Part shown: positions 9,787-55,574 of the stretch, piece after piece
How the letters are laid out: each line of letters begins with the position of its first letter
How positions within the stretch are numbered: position 1 is the first letter of the stretch
DNA from: Escherichia phage CMSTMSU
Reading direction: 5' to 3' (one strand)
Length of the DNA stretch: 64,000 bases
Sequence record: MH494197.1
Program-made: the position numbers and the translations under genes
The notes under the pieces: generated by a model
What the model saw: the letters and a program-made list of their open reading frames with translations, nothing else
What the model was told of the DNA's origin: nothing
Database searches by the model: none

Positions 9787-9829
9787 GGTCAAATGTATTT
9801 TATGCTTTTGCCTATTTGGAGGGAACTAA

Positions 9830-12800
9830 ATGTACTCGATTAAAACAGATCTAGATATAACTGGTGGTGCAACGGTTGGTAAAGATCTTCTTGTGAAAGG
9901 CGATGCAGTATTCAATAAAAATCTAACAGTTAATGGAACTGTAACTTTTGCTGACGCTGTATTCACTGCAATTGAAGCAGGAACTGTAGACATTTCATCT
10001 ACACTAGATGTTGCTGGTAAAGCATCATTGAATGGTGGAATTGAAGTTCATGGTAATTCCGTAATTGGTAATTTGCCTGTTGGCTCTGATACTGCAACGA
10101 TTAATTCTAATGCACAATTCCAAAGCCCAGTATCAATGGCAGGTAACCTAACACAAACCGCTGGCACTGCTGTACTAAAAGATACCCAAGTGGCATCAAT
10201 GGATGTTCTTGGAACTTCTTCATTTAAAGGTAATATTACTGCTGAAACTGGCACTACCGCAGCATTTGACAAAATAACTGCAACTGATGCAACATTCACA
10301 AACACTGCAACTACTGATATCACATCAACTGGAACTGCAAACTTTAAAGATGTGAATATTTCCGGTACACTAGGTGGAACATTTAGTCTATCTGATGTTA
10401 ATGCAACAACTCTAACTGTTTCTGGTTTAACCAGTCTACAAGGTGGTGTTACATTAGGTTCCAACATTACTGGTGTGAATAGTAGTGCAAACTTCCGTGA
10501 TATTAAAATTGGTTCCAATGCTGCAAACACTAACTACCGTTTGAGCTTTAACTATTCTGCTCCAAGTCTTCGCCCAACTGTAATTCTACAGAACGAAATC
10601 CAATCAGAATTGATGTCTCCAGCTACCCTAAGTGTATTGAAAACTGCATCTTTTGGTGATTCGTCATTATCCACTTTTGGTATTACTGGTAATGGTCTAA
10701 ACAAACTAGATTACCTAACAGTATCTGGTAACTCTGTTCAAGATCCAGCAACTCCACTATTACAAGTAACTTCAGGTAAAACTAAAGTTCATGATTTCGA
10801 AGTAACAGGAACTGCAACTATTCCTAACATTGAAAGTACTGGTACTGCTAATTTTAATAACATCAACGTATCTGGTACACTCGGCGGTACTTTCAGTCTT
10901 GATGATATTGAAGCAAACACTCTAACTGTTTCTGGATTAACTAGCCTTGTTGGTGGTGTAACTTTAGGTGCTGATATTTCCGGTGCTAATAGTACTGCTA
11001 ATTTTAAAGCAGTAAGTTTAGGACAAAACGCAGCCGATGCTAACGTTAAGTATGGTTTTGCTTATTCTGCCCGGTGCTCGTCCAACTGTAATTCTACAAA
11101 ATGAAATTCAGTCTGAACTAGTATCTCCAGCAGTACTAAATGTACAAAAACTGCTACCTTTGGTGATGCATCTCTTGCAACCTATGGTATCACAGGTAAC
11201 GGTCTAAACAAACTAGATTATCTATCTATTACTGGTAATGGTACACAAAGTCCAGCTACCCCACAACTACAAGTAGCTGGTAAATCAGTACTAAATGATG
11301 TTGAATTCACTGGTACTGTAACTGGTCTAACTGTTGATGTGAGTGGACAAGATCTAACTCCTAAATCAGTAGTTGCTGCTGAAGCAATCAAAGGTCAAAC
11401 CCTTGAATCAGTTGGTCAAACCACCGTAGGAACTAACCTACAAGTTGGTGGAACTGCTAATGTTGTTGGTGCACTAACTGGTACTGCTGCTACCTTCACT
11501 GGTGATGTAAGTGCTGCTAAAGGTACTTTCAGTGGTGATGTTAGCGTTACTGGTCAAACTGTAACTGTACGTGATTTAGTAGTAACTGGTACAACTACTG
11601 GTGTAACTGCCCAAGCTGATGTTGATGGTCTTGATATCGCCCCAAATAAAGTTGATGTTACAACAACACTATCTGTTGCTGGGGACACTACTTTAGCTGG
11701 CCTAACTGCTAGTTCAGTAACCAGTACTGGTGATGTTACTGGTGCGTCTGTATCTGGTAATACAGTAACTGCGGCTGGTGCACTATCTGGTGGTTCTCTT
11801 GCAGTAACTGGTGCTGGTTCTATGGCTTCACTAACTGTTCCAAGTATTACTGGTGACACTACTTTTGCTAATAACGTAACTATTACTGGAACACTAACTC
11901 CGAGTAGTATAGATTTAAGCACTACTGATGTAAGTGCTGCTTCTTTAACAACTACTGGTAACGTAACTGTTGGTGGTTCTCTTGCAGTAACTGGTGCTAT
12001 TGATTTGTCTGCTGCTGATGTAGTAACAAAATCAGTTAGTGCAACTAACCCAAGTACATTTGGTGTAATTAATGCATCTTCTGTTGTCGCAACTGGTGAC
12101 GTTTCAGGTGGCACTCTAACTACTACTGGTGCAGCGAAAGTAGGAACACTAACTAGTACTGGTGTAGTATCTGGTTCGCGTTTGTCTTCTGGTACTGCAA
12201 CAATCTCAACTTCTGTAACAGTTCCAACTTTACAAGCTGAAGCTGCTGGTGCTGGTACACTAAATCTAGCAAGTAATGTTGTCGCGGCAAAGATCTAACT
12301 GTCACTGGTGTATTCAAACCTGAAGGTGGTCTTGACCTAACAACTGTTGATATTACTGCAAACTCACTAACTACTACTGCTGATGTTAATGTTGGTGGAA
12401 ACTTAGTAGTTGATGGTACTTTTGACCTAAGTGCTGCTGATGTGTCTGTGAAATCTCTTGCAAGTGCAGAGACAATTACAAGTGCTGGTGTTATTACCGT
12501 TACCGATTCAACCAATACTAGTTCGTTACCTAAAATTACTTCAACTGATGCAACACTCTTTACAGTAAATGCAGGTACTATTAATGCAACTGGCAACAGT
12601 GTACTACAAAGTGTATCAGCTACTCAAGTAACTGCAACTAGTGCTGAATTGACTGGTGTTGGTCTTGGTCTTCAAGTCGATAATGATGCAAACGTTGGTG
12701 GTGCATTATCTGTTGGTGGAATCGCAACTGTTGGTTCTTTAACAACAACTGCTGCTTCTCTTAATATTGCAAAAATACTGCAATCACTGGTGATTTAGCT

Positions 12801-14759
12801 GTATCTGGCACACTAACTGCTGGTTCAATCGACCTAAGCAATACTGATGTAACCGTTAAATCTCTTGATTCACTAGGTAACGCACACATTGCTGGTGACC
12901 TAACTGTAGATGGTGCATTCGACTTAAGTGCAACTAACCTTGTAGCTGCAAGTCTAGCAAGTACTGGTTCTACTACTGTTGGAACTGATCTAGTACTAAC
13001 AACTGGTGTTGTGACTGGTAGCCCAGCTATCTCTGGTAATACAACAATCGGTGGAACTCTTGGTGTAACTGGTGCTGTTAACCTAACTGATATTGTTAAT
13101 ATCGGTAAGAAAGTAACAGTGAGTACTGGTGGTATTCAGGTAGTTGATGGTGGTATCAATACTAACACAATTAACGTTTCTGGTGCTTCTACTCTAGCAG
13201 GAACTTCCATTACTGGAACTTTAGGTGTAACTGGTGCTTCTACTCTAGCAGGTGTATCTGCGACATCACTAACAGTTTCTGGTGACAGTACTGTTCAGAA
13301 ACTAACTGTCCAAGGTGAATTGATCCCACAAGGTGGTCTTGACCTAAGCGGTGCAGACATTACTGCTAATAGTCTAACTACTGCAACAACTATCAATGCA
13401 ACTGGCCTAAGTACTCTAAGTGGTGGTGTTAGTACTTCTACTGTGACTGCATCTGGTCTAGCAACTGTTGGAAGTTTAACTTCTACTGCAAACGCATCAG
13501 TTGGTGGCAATTTGGGTGTAACTGGAACTCTAGATGTTACTGGTGCTACTACTGTATCTTCACTAACAGCTACTGGTGCAGTGAAAACTGGCACAACCCT
13601 AACTGTTGGTACTCCAGTTGGTGAACAACCTGAAACTGTACAGATCATTCCAGATACTTATATTGCTGGTAAATTGCGTGTAATCGGCGGTATTAACGCT
13701 GAAATCGACGTAAGTGGTCAAACACTAGAACCATATGCAATTGAAGCTGCTGCAACACTATCTGCTGTTGGTAACATTACTTCTGGTGCAACCATCGTTT
13801 CTAAAGCTGCAACAATTGGTGATGTTGGTTCACAAAACAACAACCTAACTGTTAATGGTAACGTAGTAACTAATGGTGACTTCACCGTTACTGGTGTACT
13901 AAATGCACAATTGAACCAAGCAGATTCCGATGTAGCTGTTAAATCTTTAACTGCAACTAATAACGTTGCGGCTGGTACTTCAATCACTGCTGGAACATCC
14001 ATCACTGCATCAGGCTTACTAAAAGGTAATTCGTTAGAAGTCACCACTACTGGTTCATTTGGTGGTGCAGTAACTATGTCAAGTGGTGCAAACATCACTG
14101 GTACTGTTGGTATCACTGCTGGTGACCTAACAGTAGGTGGTAATATCTCTGCAACTGGGACTGCTGGATTCGGTGCAACAACCGTTTCTACCATTACAAC
14201 ATCAGGTTTAGCTACACTTGCAAGTGCATCTGTAACTGGTGCTCTAACTGTAGGTGGTACATTAACTGCAAATGGTAACACTGTGATTGGTGATGCTGCT
14301 GCTGATACTTTAACTGTAAATGCAACATCGACATTTAAAGAGAACGCAACATTTGATAAGAACCTAACAGTGACTGGTTCTATTAACACCACCACTGCAA
14401 ACTTCACCACAAACAACATGGTAACTAAGAAATATTCTGTTATCCCTGCTAGTGTTACTGCTTCTACTGCTGCTGTAGGTGGTACTTGGACACCAGATGG
14501 TACTACTAACGTATATCGCTTAACTCTTGACCAAAGTGTTACAATGGATTCCATCGCGGGTCTAATTGGTAGTGGTCAAGCATGTTCAGTGTATATCTAT
14601 GTAACTCCATCTGTTGCTGATACTACTTTCACCTTCGGTGGTGCATACTCTGTAGTTTCTGGTACAGTAAGTGCTGTAGTTGGTCAAACAAGTATTATCC
14701 AAGTAATCTATGATGGTTTCAGTACTGTGTTTGATACCTTCGTTGCACAACGTGTATAA
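9830..14759 (+). CDS. Giant repeat-rich fibre protein A (~1640 aa), reading frame broken at about 11100, 12300 and 12800
   Basis: Track ORFs 9830..11104, 11339..12298, 12442..12798 and 13011..14759 all carry V/T/G/S/A-rich short repeats (xTVxGxxTLxG). RBS GGAGGGA. N- and C-termini are paralogous to fibre B. Confidence 0.6.
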
Positions 14760-14778
14760 CATTTTAAATTAATAATTA

Positions 14779-14806
14779 AAGCCAACTAAAATAGTTGGCT
14801 TTTTCT
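14779..14806 (+). terminator. Rho-independent terminator
   Basis: AAGCCAACT-AAAAT-AGTTGGCTT followed by TTTTCTTT. Confidence 0.6.
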
Positions 14807-14905: not shown

Positions 14906-17900
14906 ATGTACTCGATTAAAACGGATCTTGATGTATCTGGTAATTCCACGGTAGGTAAGGATCTTTTGGTCAAAGGTAATGCAGTATTCAGTAATGACCT
15001 AACGGTTAATGGGGAAGTGTCTTTTGCTAACGCAGTATTCACTGCAATTACCGCTGGTTCTGTGAATGTCACAGGTGCATTGGATGTTGCTGGTAAGGCA
15101 ACCTTATCCGGTGGTGCTGATGTTTCAGGTGCTGCGACATTTGCAGGAAACATTACTGCTGCTGACGGCACAACTGCAAAATTTGATAACTTAGAAGCTA
15201 ATTCAGGATCATTTAATTCTGTTGAATCAACTGATATTACTTCAACTGGCACAGCAACTTTTAAAGATGTAAACATTTCTGGTACACTTGGTGGTACTTT
15301 TAATCTTTCTGATATTAATGCTACAACACTTAATGTGTCTGGTGCTTCAGCACTAACTGGTTCAGTCACATTGGGTGCAAATATCACTGGTCTTGCAAGT
15401 ACTGCAAACTTCCGTGATATTCGTATCGGGCCTAATGAAGAAGGTCAAGCATATAGACTAAACTTTGGTTACACCGTTCGGACAACGACCAACCGTTCTT
15501 CTACAGAACGAAGTTCAATCCGAACTAATGTCTCCTGCTAAGTTGAATGTTCTACAAACTGCAACATTTGGTGATTCTTCACTTTCAACTTACGGTATTA
15601 CAGGTAATGGTTTAAACAAATTAGATTATGTAACTATTTCTGGTAACGCAATTCAATCACCAACCACTCCTTTACTTGAAGTAACTAAAGGTAAAACTAA
15701 AGTTGTTGATTTAGAAGTGACTGGCGTAGCAACTATTCCTAATATCGAAAGTTCTGGTACTGCAAACTTTAACAACATCAACGTATCTGGTACTATTGGT
15801 GGTAGTTTTGATTTAGATGATATCCAAGCAACAACATTATCAGTATCCGGTGCTTCAGCACTAACTGGTGCAGTTACATTGGGTGCAAACATCACTGGTC
15901 TAGCAAGTACTGCAACATTCAAAGCAATCAATTTGGGTCAAAATACCGCTGATGCTAACGTTAAGCTAGGTTTTGCATATACTGCACCTAGTGCACGTCC
16001 AACAGTCTTGTTAGCAAACGAAGTTCAATCTGAACTAATGTCTCCTGCTAAGTTGAACGTTCTACAAACTGCAACCTTCGGTTCTGCTGCACTATCTACC
16101 TATGGTATTACTGGTAATGGTCTAAACAAATTAGATTATCTAACAATTACTGGTAACGCAACACAAAACCCTGCTACTCCACAACTTCAAGTTGGTGGTA
16201 AAGCAATTCTTAATGATGTTGAATTTACAGGTACTGTAACTGGCCTAACTGTTGATGTGAGTGGACAAGATCTAACTCCTAAATCAGTAGTTGCTGCTGA
16301 AGCAATCAAAGGTCAAACTCTTGAATCAGTTGGTCAAACAACTGTAGGTTCATCTCTACAAGTTGGTGGTACTGCAACTGTTACTGGTGCATTATCTGCT
16401 GCCGCTGGTACTTTCAGTGGTGATGTTAGTGGTTCTAAAGGTATCTTCAGTGATAGCGTATCCGGTACAAGTGCAACCTTTACTGGGGATGTTAGCGGTG
16501 ATAACGCAACCTTTAGTGGCGATTTATCTGCTGTAGCTGGCACTTTCAGTGGTGATGTAACCGTAACTGGTCAAACAATCACTGTTAAAGACTTGGTAGT
16601 AACTGGAACTTCAACTGGTGTAACTGCAATCGCTGACGTTGACGGTCTTGATATTGCTCCAAACAAAGTTGATGTTACAACAACTCTATCTGTTGCTGGT
16701 GAATCAACTCTTGCTGGTGTTACAGCAACTTCAATCAATAGTACTGGTGCAATTGCAGGTACTGCAATTTCTGGCTCTACTATTACAGCAACTGGTGAAA
16801 TTTCTGGTGCATCATCTGTAGTAACTGGTCTTTCTAAATCTGGTAGCGTTGAAACTGGTGCTCTAAAGGCATCTTCTGTTGAAACTGCAATCATTAGCAA
16901 CACTGCTGGTGTGTCAATAACAAACAACACTTCAATTGCAGGTAATCTATCTGTAACTGGAACTGTTACCCCGTGCAATTGACCTAAGTACTACTGATAT
17001 TGATGCTAAGTCTCTAACAACTACTGAAGGTGCTAACATTGGTGGTGACCTAGTTGTTGCAGGTACAGTTGATCTAAGTGCTGCTGACGTTGCTGTTAAA
17101 TCTCTAACCAGTACTGGTGCAGTTATTAGTTCTGAAGGTACAGTAAGTAGTGTTCTACCTAAACTTTCCAGTACTGAAGCTAATATTACCACAGTAACTG
17201 CAACCACTGCAAATGCTACCACACTAAATGTAACTGGTACATCAACTCTAGCTGGTGTTAACGCTTCTGGTGCTATTACTTCTGCAACTAACATTACCGC
17301 TACTGGTGTATTAAAGGTGCATCTGTTGAAACTGCGTCAATCAGCAATGCTGATGGTGTAGCAATTAACAATAACACTACAATCACTGGTAATTTGGACG
17401 TATCTGGGACATTGACCCGTGCAATTGACCTAAGTACTACTGATATTAGTTCTAAGTCTCTAACCACAACTGAAGGTGCTACAATTGGTGGCGATCTTGT
17501 GGTAGCAGGTACTGTTGATCTAAGTGCTGCTGATGTGTCGGTGAAATCTCTTGCAAGTGCAGAGACAATTACAAGTGCTGGTGTTATTACAGTTTCGGAT
17601 ACAGTGAATTCTAGCACTCTACCAAAACTAATTACTACTGATGCAACTATTGGTGCTGTCCATGCAGCTACTATTGAAACAACTGGTTCAAGTACACTAA
17701 AACAAGTATCTGCTACTGAAGTAACAGCTACAAGTATTGTACTAAATTCAGTTGGTGAAGGTTTACGTGTTGACAATAATGCAAACATTAATGGTATATT
17801 AAGTGTTAATAATATTACTTCTACCAATGATACTATTGCAATTGCGAAAAGTGCTGCTATTACTGGTGATCTGACCGTATCTGGAACTGTTACCCCGGTG

Positions 17901-20608
17901 CAATTGACCTAAGTACTACCGATATTAGTTCTAAATCCTAAGTACTACTGAAGGTGCTACAATTGGTGGTGACCTAGTTGTTAATGGTTCAATTGATTTA
18001 AGTTCTTCCAATGTTTCAGCAATTACCCTTGCTAGTTCTGGTAATACTACCGTTGGTGGTAACCTAGTACTAACAACTGGTGTTGTGACTGGCAGCCCAT
18101 CTGTATCTGGTAACCTTTCAGTTGCAGGTACTGCGGCAGTAACTGGTGCAACTACCTAACTGATATCGTAAATATCGGTAAGAAAGTAACTGTAAGCACT
18201 GGTGGTATTCAAGTAGTTGCAGGTGGTATTAATACCGACGCTATATTAGTATCCGGTGATACAACTTTAAACAACACTACTGTAAACACTACCTTAAATG
18301 TAACTGGTCAAAGTACAGTTGCTGCACTAAGTGCTGCATCTTTGAATGTATCTGGTGATAGTACTGTTCAAAACTAACAGTTGAAGGTGAATTGGTTCCA
18401 CAAGGTGGTATCGACCTAACTGGTGCAGATATTTCTGCTAATAGTCTTGCAACTGCTTCAACAATCACTGCAACTGGACTAAGCACACTAAGTGGTGGTG
18501 TAAGTACTACTAATGTTACTGCATCTGGTACAGTGAATGCTGGTAGTTTGGATGTTACTAACAACGCAACCGTTGGTGGTAATTTGGGTGTAACTGGTTC
18601 ATTAACTTCTGGACCATTGAGTGTAACAGGCATTGCGAATATTACTGGTGTAACAACTGTTGGTTCATTGGTTTCCGGTGCTGTATCTGGTAGTACTGGT
18701 ACATTTAGTTCAACATTAGGTGTAACTGGTGCAGCTACATTTGACAATGACGTAACTGTTGAAGGTGTATTCACCCCAGCAGGTGGTTTAGACCTAACAA
18801 CTTCTGATATTACAGCTAAGAGTTTGTCAGTATCTGAAACTATTCACTCTGATGGTGCAGCTTCCTTTGGTGGTAACACAACAGTAGGTGGTACATTGGG
18901 TGTAACTGGTGCAGTAACTGCTCCATCGGCAACCCTAAGCGGTACTGGTACTGCACTAGCAGTAACTAATAATGCAACTATTGGTGGTACATTGGGTGTA
19001 ACTGGTCAAGCAACACTTGGTTCTATAGTAACTTCTGGTGTATCTGCAACAAGTGGCTCTTTCAGTACTACTCTTGGCGTTACTGGTGCTGCGACATTTG
19101 GAAACGATGTAACTGTAGTTGGAACACTAACTCCGGTAGCTTAGATCTAACTGGTGCAGATATCTCTGCTAAAACACTAACTCTATCTGAAACATTAAAT
19201 GCGACAGGTAATACTACCCTTGGTGGAACATTAGGTGTAACTGGTTTAGCAACAATTGGTGGAACACTAACGTCTGGTGCAGTAACTGCTCCATCTGCAA
19301 CCTTGAATGGTTCAGGAACTGGTCTAGCAGTAACTAACAACGCAACCGTTGGTGGTACATTAGGTGTAGTTGGTCAAACAACACTAGGTTCTGTTAAAAC
19401 TGGTGCAACTCTAACAGTTGGTACACCATTAGGTGAGCAGCCTGAAACTGTACAGATTATGCCAGACACTTATATTGCTGGTAAACTACGTGTTGAGGGT
19501 GGTATTAACGCAGATATCGATGTTGGTGGACAAACACTAGAACCGTTTGCAGTAATAGCATCTGATTCTTTATCTTCTGCTGGTAATATTACTGCTGGTG
19601 CGGCAATTATTTCAAGTTCTGCAACAATTGGTGAAGTCGGTTCACAAAACAACAACCTAATCGTTAATGGTAACGTTGTAAACAACGGTAACTTCACTGT
19701 TACTGGTGTACTAAATGCACAATTGAACCAAGCAGATTCCGATGTAGCTGTTAAGTCTTTGACTGCAACTAACAACGTAGCTGCTGGAACCACATTAAGT
19801 GCAGGTACTGCAATTACTGCTGGTACTTCCATCACTGCAACTGGATTACTTAAAGGTAATACTTTATTACTACTACTGGTTCATTTGGTGGTGCAGTAAC
19901 TATGTCAAGTGGTGCAAACATCACTGGTACAGTGGGTATTACTGCTGGTAACCTAACAGTGGGTGGTGATATCTCTGCAACTGGCACTGCTGGATTCGGT
20001 GCAACAACCGTTTCTACAATTACAACATCAGGTTTGGCTACACTTGCAAGTACATCCGTTACTGGTAACGCAACAGTAGGTGGAACACTAGCAGTAACAG
20101 GAGCACTAACTGCGAATGGTAACGTAACATTAGGTGACGCAGCGGCTGACGTTCTAACCGTTAATGCAACTTCATCATTTAAAGAAAATGCTGTGTTTGA
20201 TAAGGCAGTAACAGTAACTGGTGAACTAACCACTACTAATGCTAACTTAACTACTACAACAGTAACTACCAAAAGTATGATGTAATCCCAACTCAAGTTA
20301 CATCATCAGTAATTGCTCCAACCGGAACATGGACTCCAGATGGTACAAGTAACGTGTACTTCATCACTCTAGACCAAGATACCACGTTGGCTCCAATTAC
20401 TGGCCTAATTGGTGGCGGTAAAGCTGCATCAGTATACATCTATGTTAAACAAGATACAACTGGTAACAGAAACTTTACAACTGATGGTACTTATGCTGTT
20501 GTTGATGGTGAACTAAACAAAACTGCTGGTAGCGTGACCATTTACCAAGTAATTTATGATGGTGTAAGTCCAGTTACTGATTTGTTCATTGCACAACGTA
20601 CTGCTTAA
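14906..20608 (+). CDS. Giant repeat-rich fibre protein B (~1900 aa), several frame breaks
   Basis: Starts MYSIKTDLDVSG with RBS TAGGAGGGA. Pieces 15465..16982, 17394..17912, 18392..19144, 19303..19899, 19902..20285 and 20354..20608. Shares long near-identical nucleotide blocks with fibre A. Confidence 0.6.
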
Positions 20609-46149: not shown

Positions 46150-46569
46150 AAATTAATCTATCACGTAGACGGTCGTAATATTTTGCATGTATATCTAGTA
46201 TACACTGAAATGACGGATAGTCAATACTAAATGTATCATCAATGAACATGTACTGATCAAGTGTTTCAGGACCATTATCATAAACTGGCAATGAACCTTC
46301 TTTTTTAACAGTGTGTTCCACATCAAATCACATGTAGTATCGAAAATTGCGTATGCTAATTCTATCTTACTTTTTCTAAGTGTAATTAATAATTCATCAT
46401 TCTCTACTAACGCGTTTCGTATTTTTACACGTACTGTACCCTGAAATTTATTAGTGGTTAGTACTCTATATTGATTATACGAAATCATGCCTCGTATTTC
46501 AGTACTGATTTCTTGTTCAGAAAAGTACCTTAATGTACTGTGGAAATTTGGTATTTTACGAATGTCCAT
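46150..46569 (-). CDS. Hypothetical protein, tandem paralog (frameshifted C-terminus)
   Basis: C-terminal [27 protein letters not shown] parallels SGSLPIDASYEEYLQYQFIDDTFGFDF of the 46556..46966 gene. Confidence 0.35.
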
Positions 46570-46966
46570 TCAAATTCCTTTCGTATATATGGTATACGTT
46601 CATTATACTATTATATAGTTCAAAGTCAAATCCAAATGTGTCATCAATGAACTGATATTGTAGATACTCTTCATATGAAGCATCAATTGGTAATGAGCCA
46701 GAACGAATATCATCTGATTTAAAATCGTCAATATATCTTAATGTTATTTCTTCATCAACAGTGATATCTATCATCAACGTATCGTCACTGTACCAAAGGT
46801 TATGTATACGGATGTAAAGTTTCTTAGCACGATTAAAACTAGATACATTGGTATTGCGATGGAGTTTATCTAAGTTGAAGTAAAACCGGCTCGTTTTACT
46901 TATGTTTTTCATATGTTCTGCAATCGAATCAATTATATAATCAATGTTGAATGTTCTCATAAACAA
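46556..46966 (-). CDS. Hypothetical protein, tandem paralog (136 aa)
   Basis: Intact ORF. Confidence 0.4.
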   Translation of the reverse strand: MFMRTFNIDYIIDSIAEHMKNISKTSRFYFNLDKLHRNTNVSSFNRAKKLYIRIHNLWYSDDTLMIDITVDEEITLRYIDDFKSDDIRSGSLPIDASYEEYLQYQFIDDTFGFDFELYNSIMNVYHIYERNLNGHS

Positions 46967-46989
46967 ATCTCATAGCGGTTTGTGTTTGG

Positions 46990-47264
46990 ATTGTAGCAAT
47001 AGGTATCATTAATTTTAACACGGTTTAAGTGTTATTGTTGTTCCTACTTCAGTACTGGGTTCTGCATCACAATAAATCATCACACCAACGCCACAGATTA
47101 AAGCTAAGATACAAATAATAGCACATATTATATATTCCATCACTCCCCATCAGCCAATCAAAGAGACGTTCCAAGAAGCCATTAGGCTTGTATTCTGGTT
47201 CTTTGTTCACGTCGGTTTCTTGTTCATAAACACCCAAATCTTCTTCAAGTATAATTGTATTCAT
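46990..47264 (-). CDS. Small protein: conserved N-terminal module plus C-terminal transmembrane segment (frame break between them)
   Basis: MNTIILEEDLGVYEQETDVNKEPEYKPNGFLERLFDWLMG followed, in a neighbouring frame, by MEYIICAIICILALICGVGVMIYCDAEPS. Confidence 0.3.
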
Positions 47265-47647
47265 TATATATTATACTCTATTATACCATCATCACTTTCA
47301 CCAGACAACCACTTAATGTAATTTACTTTGTAGAAATTAATCAATGCATAAGTGCTGTACTCAATCAACAAGTGATCTCTCAAGAATTCGTCTTGAGCAT
47401 ATCCATCTTCATCCAAATCTGTTGGAATATCAGTTTCTTTGTCTTGAATGTGTAAAGTTATTGTGTCTTTTGTTATACAAATTTTTATATGATTACAAAT
47501 AGTAATGATGATTATGCTATATGTTCTATTGAAATATATTGTGAAATCTTCATTAATATTATATCTTCGACTTTCTTCATATTTCTGATATGGGTCGAAA
47601 TGTGATAAATTAACTTTAATTAATGTATTTCTCAACTTACACCTCAA
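47264..47647 (-). CDS. Hypothetical protein (127 aa)
   Basis: Intact ORF. Confidence 0.4.
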   Translation of the reverse strand: MRCKLRNTLIKVNLSHFDPYQKYEESRRYNINEDFTIYFNRTYSIIIITICNHIKICITKDTITLHIQDKETDIPTDLDEDGYAQDEFLRDHLLIEYSTYALINFYKVNYIKWLSGESDDGIIEYNI

Positions 47648-48039
47648 TCATATAAAGTAATTATACATTTTATTGTACAATATAAAAGGTCTTTCACATT
47701 ATCATAAGTAATATCAGATATATCATGAATTAATGATAACTGAAAAATGAAGCTTCGTCTATCTCTACTGGGATTATAACATCATAGTCTTCGTCAATTT
47801 TATGGGTGTAGTATTTTATGTGATCAGCATTCAACACAAGGTTGTATTTTGTATCATCTTCAATTAATCCGACAAATTGAGATTTTTGATTAATAAAAAT
47901 CCAATCCCAACACAACGGTTATCTGGATATGGATAGTACCATCTATTAATAACTAGGTGTTCAGGTAAGTCCATATCATGTGTTGATATTAAAGATTTTA
48001 CAATTCCCATCCGGAATAATTCATAATTAAAACTCCATA

Positions 48040-48070
48040 AGAAAAGGGACAGAATAATCTCTGTCCCTTT
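48040..48070 (-). terminator. Rho-independent terminator
   Basis: AGGGACAG-AATAATCT-CTGTCCCT with flanking A/T runs. Confidence 0.5.
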
Positions 48071-54680: not shown

Positions 54681-54761
54681 TAGTCCAGATGTTACGCGTA
54701 ATCACTCATTTTTAATCCTTTTTTTATTTTTCAAGTTTATCAATAATAGAAGGTGATACTT

Positions 54762-55340
54762 TTACATTGAATTCAGAATCAGGAAAATCTTTAGAAAATG
54801 AATCAATTTGTTCTTGTGAAAGTTCTTCTTTTGTGGAAATAACATTTTAACTAAATTTTTACCACATTCAATTGCTTCATCATACGACATAGTTTCCCAT
54901 GTTCCATGCCAAGTACTAGGTTCATATTCTGTCAGTACAGAAATGAAATCAATATCATCGGGTGTATACCAAACAGCATTTTGATTCCCTGATGGTGCTG
55001 ATTGATTTTTACCTAATAAAACAATTGGCTTTTCATAAGGAATGTTAAATATCAACCCAGATTCTAAGTTAAGAACAGTTTGAATAGATGAACCCTCCAA
55101 TTTTGGAGTAATAGTACCATCCTTAAAGAAAATTTGTACATGACCCAAGAGTGGGGTTTCATATGGTGTAAGTACATTTTCAGAAACTGATGTGGGTTTT
55201 GCCGTTGTGAAAATACCAGATGGGGTGACCATTAATTTATTATCAAAATTCTGATAATGCAATTCACTATCCACATCATAATGATAAATGTCTAGATTTG
55301 GTTGAGATAGTAGTAATTTTGCTAAATCATGAGATTTCAT
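54762..55340 (-). CDS. Hypothetical protein, paralog of the 53463 module
   Basis: MKSHDLAKLLLSQPNLDIYH...TPSGIF; ATG at 55340 with RBS GGAGAAA. Confidence 0.4.
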   Translation of the reverse strand: MKSHDLAKLLLSQPNLDIYHYDVDSELHYQNFDNKLMVTPSGIFTTAKPTSVSENVLTPYETPLLGHVQIFFKDGTITPKLEGSSIQTVLNLESGLIFNIPYEKPIVLLGKNQSAPSGNQNAVWYTPDDIDFISVLTEYEPSTWHGTWETMSYDEAIECGKNLVKMLFPQKKNFHKNKLIHFLKIFLILNSM

Positions 55341-55351
55341 TTTATTTCTCC

Positions 55352-55381
55352 AAAGAAAAGGAGAGTCACAATGACTCTCCA
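55352..55381 (-). terminator. Rho-independent terminator
   Basis: GGAGAGTCA-CAA-TGACTCTCC with a U-run on the minus transcript. Confidence 0.5.
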
Positions 55382-55574
55382 TATATTTTATTGTAAAACT
55401 TTGAGTTTGTAAAGCATTCCTTCACAAAAACTCATAATGTCTTCTAGCGTGTTAGTACTACCATAGTCTTCAGCCTCTTCTAGCATAGCATGAATGGCTT
55501 TACATTGACTAACATATTCTTCAAGAATTGGTACACAATCCTCGATAGGGTAAAACGATAACTGTTACCAGTAC

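What the first reader, a model, noticed from the sequence alone, without database searches (positions are those of the whole stretch)
10210..11260. Intragenic tandem duplication of a ~170-aa module in both giant fibres
The module ...RPTVILQNEIQSELMSPATLSVLKTASFGDSSLSTFGITGNGLNKLDYLTVSGN...TGTANFNNINVSGTLGGTFSL... occurs twice in tandem in fibre A (about 10210-10730 and 10740-11260) and twice in fibre B (about 15130-15650 and 15650-16170). In fibre A the second copy carries a 2-nt deficit relative to the first copy (the GCTCCAAGTCTTCGCCCAACT versus GCCCGGTGCTCGTCCAACT context near 11066) that breaks the frame. That is either a read error or a real inactivating lesion.
Basis: seen in the sequence. 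Interest (0 to 1): 0.45.

Follow-up and report, generated by a model that had tools for sequence, protein, structure and literature searches.

The report
Real fibre module repeat, artefactual frameshift
The two long tail-fibre genes of this jumbo E. coli phage really do each contain two tandem copies of a 170-residue module, an old and conserved layout, and the "frame break" in one copy is a sequencing error of the kind nanopore basecalling makes at methylated CCWGG sites, not a damaged gene.

Summary
The window comes from a jumbo E. coli myophage of the 121Q/Asteriusvirus group, 98.9% identical to phage WPEC5. The tandem 170-aa module is real. The copies lie at 10316-10825 and 10826-11329 in fibre A, and at 15233-15740 and 15741-16247 in fibre B. 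Copies within a gene are 66-68% identical in protein; copies at the same position in different genes are 75-77% identical.

The duplication is older than the A/B gene duplication and older than the split from 121Q, whose single fibre has the same two modules. Family members carry 1, 2 or 3 copies. It is a conserved architecture, not an assembly artefact.

The 2-nt deficit at 11073 is also real in the sequence, but it is a CCTGG read as CC--GG. A 1-nt loss in an A6 run at 11146 restores the frame.

Across the window:
- All 46 CCWGG sites present in WPEC5 are corrupted, and the window contains no CCWGG at all.
- There are 304 deletion events against 8 insertions.
- Homopolymers of 6 or more bases are shortened in 93-100% of cases.

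Illumina-sequenced relatives keep every CCWGG site and have intact 1644- and 1906-aa ORFs. Restoring the missing bases gives full-length fibres with no stop codons.

Verdict: an ordinary fibre gene in an unpolished nanopore-type assembly. Interest is low.

The parts
9830..14759 (+). Fibre A gene. It is the long tail fibre paralogue, 1644 aa when intact. In the raw window it is split over three frames by 4 deletion events at 11073, 11146, 12289 and 12771.
   Evidence: It is colinear with WPEC5 CDS0403, Ecwhy1_207 and fEgEco12 g317, each an intact 4935-nt CDS. Translations are, the indel list, and the patched ORF has 0 stops.
10316..10825 (+). Module copy A1 (fibre A aa 163-332). It is intact in the window.
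10826..11329 (+). Module copy A2 (fibre A aa 333-501). It lacks 3 nt in the window.
11072..11074 (+). Site of the 2-nt deficit. CCTGG (codons Pro-Gly of 'SAPGARPTV') is read as CC--GG. This is a Dcm-motif basecalling deletion.
11142..11150 (+). A6 run read as A5. This 1-nt homopolymer deletion puts the reading back in frame 1, so only about 25 codons read out of frame.
14906..20608 (+). Fibre B gene. It is the second long tail fibre paralogue, 1906 aa when intact. In the raw window it is fragmented by 11 deletion events (18 nt).
   Evidence: It is colinear with WPEC5 CDS0404 and fEgEco12 g316, each 5721 nt.
15233..15740 (+). Module copy B1 (fibre B aa 110-279). It carries a 2-nt Dcm-site deletion at 15480 (CCAGG read as C--GG), at the codon position homologous to the A2 break.
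15741..16247 (+). Module copy B2 (fibre B aa 280-448). It is intact in the window.

Best explanation
The locus holds two paralogous long tail-fibre genes of an Asteriusvirus-like jumbo coliphage. Each starts with an N-terminal region of about 110-160 aa and continues with two tandem copies of a 170-aa beta-rich module, followed by the rest of the shaft. The doubled module arose by an ancient intragenic duplication that is now a fixed part of the fibre. Copy number in the wider family is 1 to 3.

By homology and gene order, the modules most likely form the proximal part of a trimeric fibre shaft just beyond the region that attaches to the baseplate. That step is inferred, not shown.

The frame break in copy A2 is not biological. 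The window is an uncorrected long-read (Oxford Nanopore type) consensus. 5-methylcytosine at Dcm sites (CCWGG) and long homopolymers are systematically called too short in such data. The CCTGG that encodes Pro-Gly in 'APGARPTV' lost two bases, and an A6 run 73 nt downstream lost one. The real phage almost certainly encodes intact fibres of 1644 and 1906 aa.
For: Identity of the locus. The window is 98.9% identical to WPEC5 and 96-99% identical to eight other 121Q-like phages. In the three whose annotation was read (WPEC5, Ecwhy_1, fEgEco12), fibre A is an intact 4935-nt CDS and fibre B an intact 5700- or 5721-nt CDS. fEgEco12 was assembled from Illumina reads (PMC13070987).

Error signature:
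- Against WPEC5 over 18 kb there are 49 indel events, all deletions in the window, and most sit at CCWGG or in A/T/G runs.
- 16/16 CCWGG sites in that stretch and 46/46 across the window are altered. The window has 0 CCWGG against about 46 expected from composition.
- There are 304 deletions against 8 insertions.
- Homopolymer shortening rises with run length: 6% of 4-mers, 44% of 5-mers, 93% of 6-mers and 100% of 7- and 8-mers.

Control at equal divergence. WPEC5 compared with Ecwhy_1 or fEgEco12 shows 1-4 gap events and 16/16 CCWGG kept.

Motif dependence within the four paralogous module copies. A2 and B1 have CCWGG at the homologous codon and both are broken there. A1 has CCAAG and is intact.

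Restoring 5 nt in A and 18 nt in B gives ORFs with 0 internal stops, differing from WPEC5 by only 10 and 6 aa.

This error profile is documented. Dcm motifs made up about 70% of ONT consensus errors with default models, followed by homopolymer length errors (Wick et al. 2019, PMC6591954). Base modification in general induces nanopore errors (PMC11610603).

Age of the duplication. First copies (A1, B1, 121Q-1) group at 71-75% identity and second copies at 77-78%. First against second is 58-68%. Family members have 1, 2 or 3 modules.

Fibre identity. The proteins match PHROG 4549 'tail fiber protein' at E = 1e-182 to 1e-204. The ortholog phAPEC6 gp256 (180 kDa) was detected in virions by mass spectrometry (PMC7247149). 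The module profile matches the phiTE tail fibre chain 9cuy_g at residues 178-329 with E = 1.7e-21, and the C-terminal domain also matches.
Against: No reads or signal data are available, so the sequencing platform is inferred from the error signature alone.

The reference genomes are other isolates, 1-2% diverged, not the same phage.

A few deletions are neither at CCWGG nor in homopolymers, for example the 4-nt GAAG loss at 19867. These could be random errors or real differences.

The structural role of the module is inferred. AlphaFold monomer models were poor, and the homologous stretch of the phiTE fibre lies outside the experimentally modelled residues 14-171 (PMC11972413).
Confidence: 0.95

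Rival explanations
1. The 2-nt loss is a real frameshift mutation that inactivates or truncates fibre A. On this reading fibre A is a decaying paralogue made redundant by fibre B.
For: The gene has a paralogue (fibre B) that could in principle cover for its loss. The raw sequence does contain the deficit.
Against: Fibre B is broken even more often, by 11 events, as are neighbouring genes whose products relatives annotate as structural proteins. The loss lies in a Dcm motif, and all 46 such motifs in the window are miscalled. The frame is restored after 25 codons. The patched ORF has no stop codon and differs from WPEC5 by only 10 aa. Relatives keep the gene intact.
Confidence: 0.02
2. The phage genuinely lacks CCWGG, for example to avoid an EcoRII-type restriction enzyme, and the differences from relatives are real sequence evolution.
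For: There are no CCWGG sites in 64 kb against about 46 expected. Three of the 16 sites examined in detail are changed by substitution rather than deletion.
Against: Thirteen of those 16 sites are removed by 1-3-nt deletions that break coding frames, including genes relatives annotate as structural. Relatives at 99% identity keep all the sites. The same sequence also shows length-dependent homopolymer truncation, which has nothing to do with restriction avoidance.
Confidence: 0.01
3. The breaks are bypassed by programmed ribosomal frameshifting or another recoding mechanism, so the fibre is made from the sequence as written.
For: Two shifts totalling -3 lie 73 nt apart, which could superficially suggest a bypass.
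Against: There is no slippery X XXY YYZ heptamer at GCCCGGTGC. The out-of-frame stretch contains two stop codons in the frame entered. Close relatives encode the same peptide in a single frame. The rival would require hundreds of such sites across the window.
Confidence: 0.005
4. The module duplication is an assembly copy-number artefact, a repeat mis-assembled as two copies.
For: Long-read assemblies can mis-count tandem repeats, and the window is demonstrably error-rich.
Against: The copies are only 74-75% identical in DNA, so they cannot be confused in assembly. The same two copies occur in independently sequenced genomes, including Illumina-only fEgEco12, 121Q and phAPEC6. The copies follow a consistent pattern of first copy against second copy across genomes.
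Confidence: 0.01

Closest known systems
Long tail-fibre proteins of Asteriusvirus jumbo coliphages: 121Q gp571, phAPEC6 gp256, fEgEco12 g317/g316, WPEC5 CDS0403/0404, Ecwhy_1 207/208
   Same: They share the gene neighbourhood: structural genes and a 'colanic acid-degrading protein' gene upstream, structural genes and then thymidylate synthase downstream. They share the N-terminus MYSIKTDL... and two tandem 170-aa modules at the same positions (aa 163-332 and 333-501 in 121Q). DNA identity is 96-99% to the WPEC5 clade, and module protein identity to 121Q is about 71-78%. phAPEC6 gp256 is a virion protein by mass spectrometry (PMC7247149).
   Different: 121Q and phAPEC6 have one fibre gene. The window's clade has two tandem paralogues, A and B. 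The raw window sequence carries technology-type deletions that the relatives lack.
Systematic Oxford Nanopore consensus errors at Dcm sites (CCAGG/CCTGG) and in homopolymers (Wick, Judd and Holt 2019, Genome Biol 20:129, PMC6591954)
   Same: The errors are concentrated in CCWGG and in homopolymer length. Deletions dominate. The host is an enterobacterium, where Dcm methylation is expected.
   Different: Here 100% of sites are affected and no polishing is evident. The platform is inferred from the signature, not documented.
Tail fibre of Pectobacterium myophage phiTE (PDB 9CUY/9MJN chain g, 793 aa)
   Same: The module profile matches residues 178-329 at E = 1.7e-21. The shaft and the C-terminal domain of about 110-210 aa also align (E = 1e-28 to 1e-30). 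The paper describes the long fibre as a trimer with an N-terminal attachment region followed by a predicted extended beta-helix (PMC11972413).
   Different: It has one module rather than two and is less than half as long. If chain g is the paper's long tail fibre, which I infer, only residues 14-171 were modelled experimentally, so there are no experimental coordinates for the module itself.
T4 gp34, the 'long tail fiber proximal subunit' (the label used for these genes in several GenBank records)
   Same: Both are large fibre proteins of a contractile-tailed phage with internal repeats. This is a functional analogy only.
   Different: No sequence relationship was detected. No Pfam family passed threshold, and the PDB sequence searches returned only the phiTE fibre. 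The label appears to be annotation transfer.

Membership tests
Asteriusvirus / RaK2-like and rV5-like long tail fibre family (PHROG 4549) | Significant match to the family profile | tested here: met
   phrog_4549 'tail fiber protein' matches fibre A at E = 9e-182, fibre B at 1.5e-203 and the single module at 2.5e-29.
Asteriusvirus / RaK2-like and rV5-like long tail fibre family (PHROG 4549) | Conserved position in the structural gene block, orthologous to 121Q gp571 | tested here: met
   The flanking genes are the same in WPEC5, Ecwhy_1, fEgEco12, 121Q and phAPEC6.
Asteriusvirus / RaK2-like and rV5-like long tail fibre family (PHROG 4549) | The product is a virion component that forms a trimeric fibre | not testable with these tools
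   The ortholog phAPEC6 gp256 was found in virions by mass spectrometry (PMC7247149). The phiTE homologue is trimeric (PMC11972413). No multimer prediction was available, and monomer AF2 models were poor.
Nanopore-type Dcm/homopolymer consensus error | Errors concentrated at CCAGG/CCTGG | tested here: met
   46/46 sites are altered, and there are 0 CCWGG in 64 kb against about 46 expected. Relatives keep 16/16.
Nanopore-type Dcm/homopolymer consensus error | Length-dependent shortening of homopolymers, with deletions far outnumbering insertions | tested here: met
   Shortened runs: 6% of 4-mers, 44% of 5-mers, 93% of 6-mers, 100% of 7- and 8-mers. There are 304 deletions against 8 insertions.
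Nanopore-type Dcm/homopolymer consensus error | Disagreement between raw reads or signal and an accurate short-read consensus of the same sample | not testable with these tools
   No reads are available. Only other isolates could be compared.
Pseudogene (real inactivating lesion) | Lesions independent of error-prone motifs, nonsense substitutions, relaxed constraint | tested here: not met
   After the deletions are restored there are 0 internal stops and only 10 (A) and 6 (B) aa differences from WPEC5. All 4 events in fibre A lie at a CCWGG site or in an A run.
Programmed ribosomal frameshift | A slippery site, and conservation of the two-frame arrangement in relatives | tested here: not met
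   There is no slippery heptamer at 11066-11080. Relatives encode the region in one frame.
T4 gp34-like long tail fibre proximal subunit | Sequence homology to gp34 or its solved fragments | tested here: not met
   No Pfam family passed threshold. PDB sequence searches with both fibres and with the module profile return only the phiTE fibre.

The most novel reading that the evidence does not exclude
The 170-aa module may be a self-contained structural cassette. Its copy number (1, 2 or 3 in different family members) would be changed by unequal recombination to tune the length or a hinge of the proximal fibre. In this clade the whole fibre gene has also been duplicated. Short patches where both copies within a gene agree against the other gene (module residues 38-40 and 81-109) hint at intragenic gene conversion. 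The phage could thus carry two different fibre sets. Separately, the miscalling of 46/46 CCWGG sites implies that the packaged DNA was essentially fully Dcm-methylated.
Probability: 0.3. Interest if true: 0.2.

Novelty: already known. Interest (0 to 1): 0.08.

Why it matters
The main value is quality control. This window, and presumably the whole genome record it comes from, is an unpolished long-read assembly. Every CCWGG site and nearly every homopolymer of 6 or more bases is wrong, so almost every long gene appears fragmented.

Any other first-stage finding in this window that rests on frameshifts, split genes, pseudogenes, short ORFs or motif depletion should be read in that light.

Biologically, the doubled module is a normal, conserved feature of the long tail fibre of 121Q-like jumbo phages. 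It adds a small descriptive point: copy number of 1-3 and a duplication older than the A/B gene duplication.

Tried and rejected
- Tandem Repeats Finder did not report the 510-nt repeat. Its longest period is 500 nt and the copies are about 74% identical. The repeat was shown by the repeat finder and by protein offset alignment.
- BLASTP of each fibre against itself returned only the full-length self-match, so the copies had to be located by motif.
- The search for homologous proteins with module A1 returned only one 146-aa fragment, so it gave no useful alignment.
- The exhaustive HMMER search found only 12 representative proteins. These were used to count module copies and to build an 18-row alignment.
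- AlphaFold2 on fibre A residues 1-414 without an alignment gave mean pLDDT 48.
- AlphaFold2 on module A1 with the 18-row alignment gave pLDDT 62, pTM 0.24 and almost no secondary structure. This is expected for a chain that folds only as an intertwined trimer.
- No fold search was run, because such models give meaningless matches.
- Pfam found nothing above threshold in either fibre.
- I considered and rejected a real pseudogene, programmed frameshifting, true CCWGG avoidance and an assembly copy-number artefact (see the rival explanations).
- I considered stop-codon reassignment as a cause of the fragmented ORFs. I dropped it once the frame changes were seen to be indels.
- A 630-bp stretch at 54.7-55.3 kb that is absent from WPEC5 is an ordinary gene present in Ecwhy_1 and fEgEco12.

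Full report
**What the window is.** The region 9800-14800 is 98.9% identical in DNA to Escherichia phage WPEC5. It is 96-99% identical to eight further jumbo coliphages (EC.P1, Ecwhy_1, fEgEco12, vB_Ec-M-J, WPEC3, BF17, Turkey3, TH47). It is about 74% identical to 121Q, PBECO4, phAPEC6 and other Asteriusvirus members. In WPEC5, Ecwhy_1 and fEgEco12 the stretch holds two adjacent plus-strand genes. One is an intact 4935-nt CDS (1644 aa, here fibre A). The other is an intact 5700- or 5721-nt CDS (1906 aa in WPEC5, here fibre B). They are annotated variously as 'long tail fiber proximal subunit', 'tail fiber protein' or 'hypothetical protein'. In the window the same DNA yields only fragments. Fibre A runs in frame 1, then 2, 1, 3 and 2.

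**Checking the duplication.**
- The protein motifs RPTV, GTA(N/T)F and GITGNGLNKLDY recur at a spacing of exactly 170 residues in both fibres. An offset-170 self-comparison delimits the repeated span.
- Module positions in the intact proteins are A1 aa 163-332, A2 aa 333-501, B1 aa 110-279 and B2 aa 280-448.
- In window coordinates these are A1 10316-10825, A2 10826-11329, B1 15233-15740 and B2 15741-16247.
- Protein identities are A1-A2 66%, B1-B2 68%, A1-B1 75%, A2-B2 77% and cross pairs 61%. DNA identities are 70-79%. The A1-A2 alignment score lies 41 standard deviations above shuffles.
- The duplication is therefore real and far beyond chance.

**How old and how general it is.**
- 121Q has a single fibre gene, gp571 (1841 aa), at the same place in the same gene block. 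It also contains two modules, at aa 163-332 and 333-501.
- First copies (A1, B1, Q1) group together at 71-75% identity. Second copies (A2, B2, Q2) group at 77-78%. First against second is 58-68%.
- The intragenic duplication therefore predates both the split from 121Q and the A/B gene duplication.
- A tblastn of one module against 50,697 phage records finds 4 copies in the window's clade and 2 in 121Q, PBECO4, GAP32 and CBB. It finds 1 in several Erwinia, Serratia, Yersinia and Klebsiella jumbo phages and in rV5-like phages, and 5 in vB_EcoM_JNE01.
- An exhaustive HMMER search of 1.84 billion representative proteins finds only 12 members.
- A module HMM counts 1 copy in P0005 and P0012, 2 copies in most members (including ones at about 35% identity) and 3 copies in P0002.
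- The doubled module is thus a conserved architecture of a small fibre family, with some variation in copy number.
- It cannot be an assembly artefact. The copies differ by about 25% in DNA and recur in independently sequenced genomes, including the Illumina-only fEgEco12 (PMC13070987).

**The frame break.** The window reads TTCTGCCC--GGTGCTCGTCC where WPEC5 and Ecwhy_1 read TTCTGCCCCTGGTGCTCGTCC. The lost bases lie inside CCTGG. Seventy-three nucleotides downstream an A6 run is read as A5, which restores the original frame. Only about 25 codons read out of frame.

**The pattern is general.**
- Over the 18 kb aligned to WPEC5 there are 49 indel events, every one a deletion in the window. Most lie at CCWGG or in A, T or G runs.
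- All 16 CCWGG sites of that stretch are corrupted, 13 by deletion and 3 by substitution. The entire 64-kb window contains no CCWGG at all, against about 46 expected from composition.
- Over the full window, 46 of 46 CCWGG sites are changed. There are 304 deletion events against 8 insertions.
- The fraction of homopolymers shortened rises from 6% for 4-mers to 44% for 5-mers, 93% for 6-mers and 100% for 7- and 8-mers.
- GATC sites are largely untouched, with 108 of 116 unchanged.
- As a control at equal divergence, WPEC5 against Ecwhy_1 or fEgEco12 over the same 18 kb shows 68-156 substitutions but only 1-4 gap events, and 16/16 CCWGG are retained.
- The four paralogous module copies provide an internal control. 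At the homologous codon position A2 has CCTGG and B1 has CCAGG in relatives, and both have lost 2 nt in the window (11073 and 15480). A1 has CCAAG and is intact.
- Filling in the missing bases (5 nt in A, 18 nt in B) gives ORFs of 1644 and 1906 codons with no internal stop. They differ from WPEC5 by only 10 and 6 amino acids.

**Interpretation of the break.** This is the documented error profile of Oxford Nanopore consensus sequence from Dcm-positive enterobacteria. With default basecalling models about 70% of consensus errors fell in CCAGG/CCTGG motifs, and homopolymer length errors were the next largest class (Wick et al. 2019, PMC6591954). DNA modification in general induces nanopore read errors (PMC11610603). 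I conclude with about 95% confidence that the frame break is a basecalling artefact at a methylated Dcm site. The platform itself is inferred from the signature, not shown.

**What the module is and does.**
- Both fibres match PHROG 4549 'tail fiber protein' (E = 1e-182 and 1e-204). No Pfam family passes threshold.
- The ortholog phAPEC6 gp256 (same length as 121Q gp571, about 180 kDa) was recovered from virions by mass spectrometry (PMC7247149; locus check).
- The only solved relative is the phiTE 'putative tail fiber protein' (9CUY/9MJN chain g, 793 aa). The module profile matches its residues 178-329 (E = 1.7e-21), and the shaft and C-terminal domain also align.
- The phiTE paper describes its long tail fibre as a trimer. 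[quoted passage not shown] A predicted long, partly flexible beta-helix follows (PMC11972413).
- If chain g is that fibre, which I infer, the module begins right after the attachment region. The most likely role of the two modules is to form the first segments of the trimeric shaft next to the baseplate, with copy number setting length or flexibility. This step is inference.
- AlphaFold2 monomer models were uninformative, with pLDDT 48 without an alignment and pLDDT 62, pTM 0.24 with an 18-row alignment. No fold search was run.

**Comparison with what is known, and novelty.** The genes are close orthologues of annotated fibre genes in at least nine GenBank genomes. Internal repeats and paralogous duplication of tail fibres are commonplace, and tandem gene duplication has been noted for jumbo phages of this group (PMC7247149). 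The label 'long tail fiber proximal subunit' (T4 gp34) is not supported by any sequence match found here. The frame break is not a biological feature. Nothing here is new in kind.

**Verdict.** Interest is low (0.08). The useful by-product is a warning that every frameshift, split gene and motif-depletion signal in this window is suspect.

Noticed in passing
window 1-64000: The whole window carries a long-read error signature relative to WPEC5: 304 deletion events (396 nt) against 8 insertions. All 46 CCWGG sites are altered and none remains. Homopolymers of 6 or more bases are shortened in 93-100% of cases. Nearly all long genes therefore look fragmented, and the longest ORF is 582 aa.
   Followed up: yes
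window 14906-20608: Fibre B is broken by 11 deletion events (18 nt). One is a 2-nt loss at 15480 (CCAGG) at the codon position of module B1 that is homologous to the A2 break.
   Followed up: yes
window 16970-17134, 17416-17580, 17895-17937; 12323-12487, 12820-12984: A second family of internal repeats of about 150-165 aa ('TPGAIDLSTTD(I/V)...KSL...GG(D/N)LVV(A/D)GT(V/F)DLSAADV') occurs 3 times in fibre B and 2-3 times in fibre A. In fibre B each copy encodes 'TPG' with CCTGG, and each has a deletion there in the window (16973, 17419, 17897).
   Followed up: partly
window 16364-16568 and 11446-11551: There is an array of 33-nt (11-aa) repeats of the type 'G(T/I)FSGDVS(G/A)xx'. Fibre B has about 5-6 units and fibre A has 2-3.
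   Followed up: no
window 19867: A 4-nt loss (GAAG in WPEC5) in fibre B lies neither at a Dcm motif nor in a homopolymer. It breaks the frame and is probably also an error, but the two systematic error classes do not explain it.
   Followed up: no
module residues 38-40, 55, 81, 90, 95, 109 (for example window about 10427-10435 and 10937-10945): At 8 sites the two copies within a gene agree with each other and differ from the other gene (for example SGLTSL in A1 and A2 against SGASAL in B1 and B2). At 21 sites the grouping is by copy position instead. With 121Q as outgroup, this suggests short tracts of intragenic gene conversion.
   Followed up: partly
window about 46300-48050: This stretch diverges from WPEC5 with clustered substitutions and true insertions and deletions, including a 10-nt gap. 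It looks like a genuinely mosaic or variable segment rather than sequencing error.
   Followed up: no
window 54709-55343: About 630 bp containing a 206-aa minus-strand ORF (54762-55382) is absent from WPEC5 but present at 99% identity in Ecwhy_1, fEgEco12 and EC.P1. It has no Pfam match and appears to be an ordinary accessory-gene presence/absence difference.
   Followed up: partly
window-wide GATC sites: Dam sites are almost unaffected, with 108 of 116 identical to WPEC5. The motif-specific miscalling is confined to the 5mC (Dcm) motif.
   Followed up: yes
protein P0002 (2120 aa, from the representative library): This is a fibre homologue with three tandem modules (aa 164-332, 333-501, 503-671). 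The first two resemble copy 1 and the third resembles copy 2. It shows that further duplication of the module occurs in nature.
   Followed up: partly
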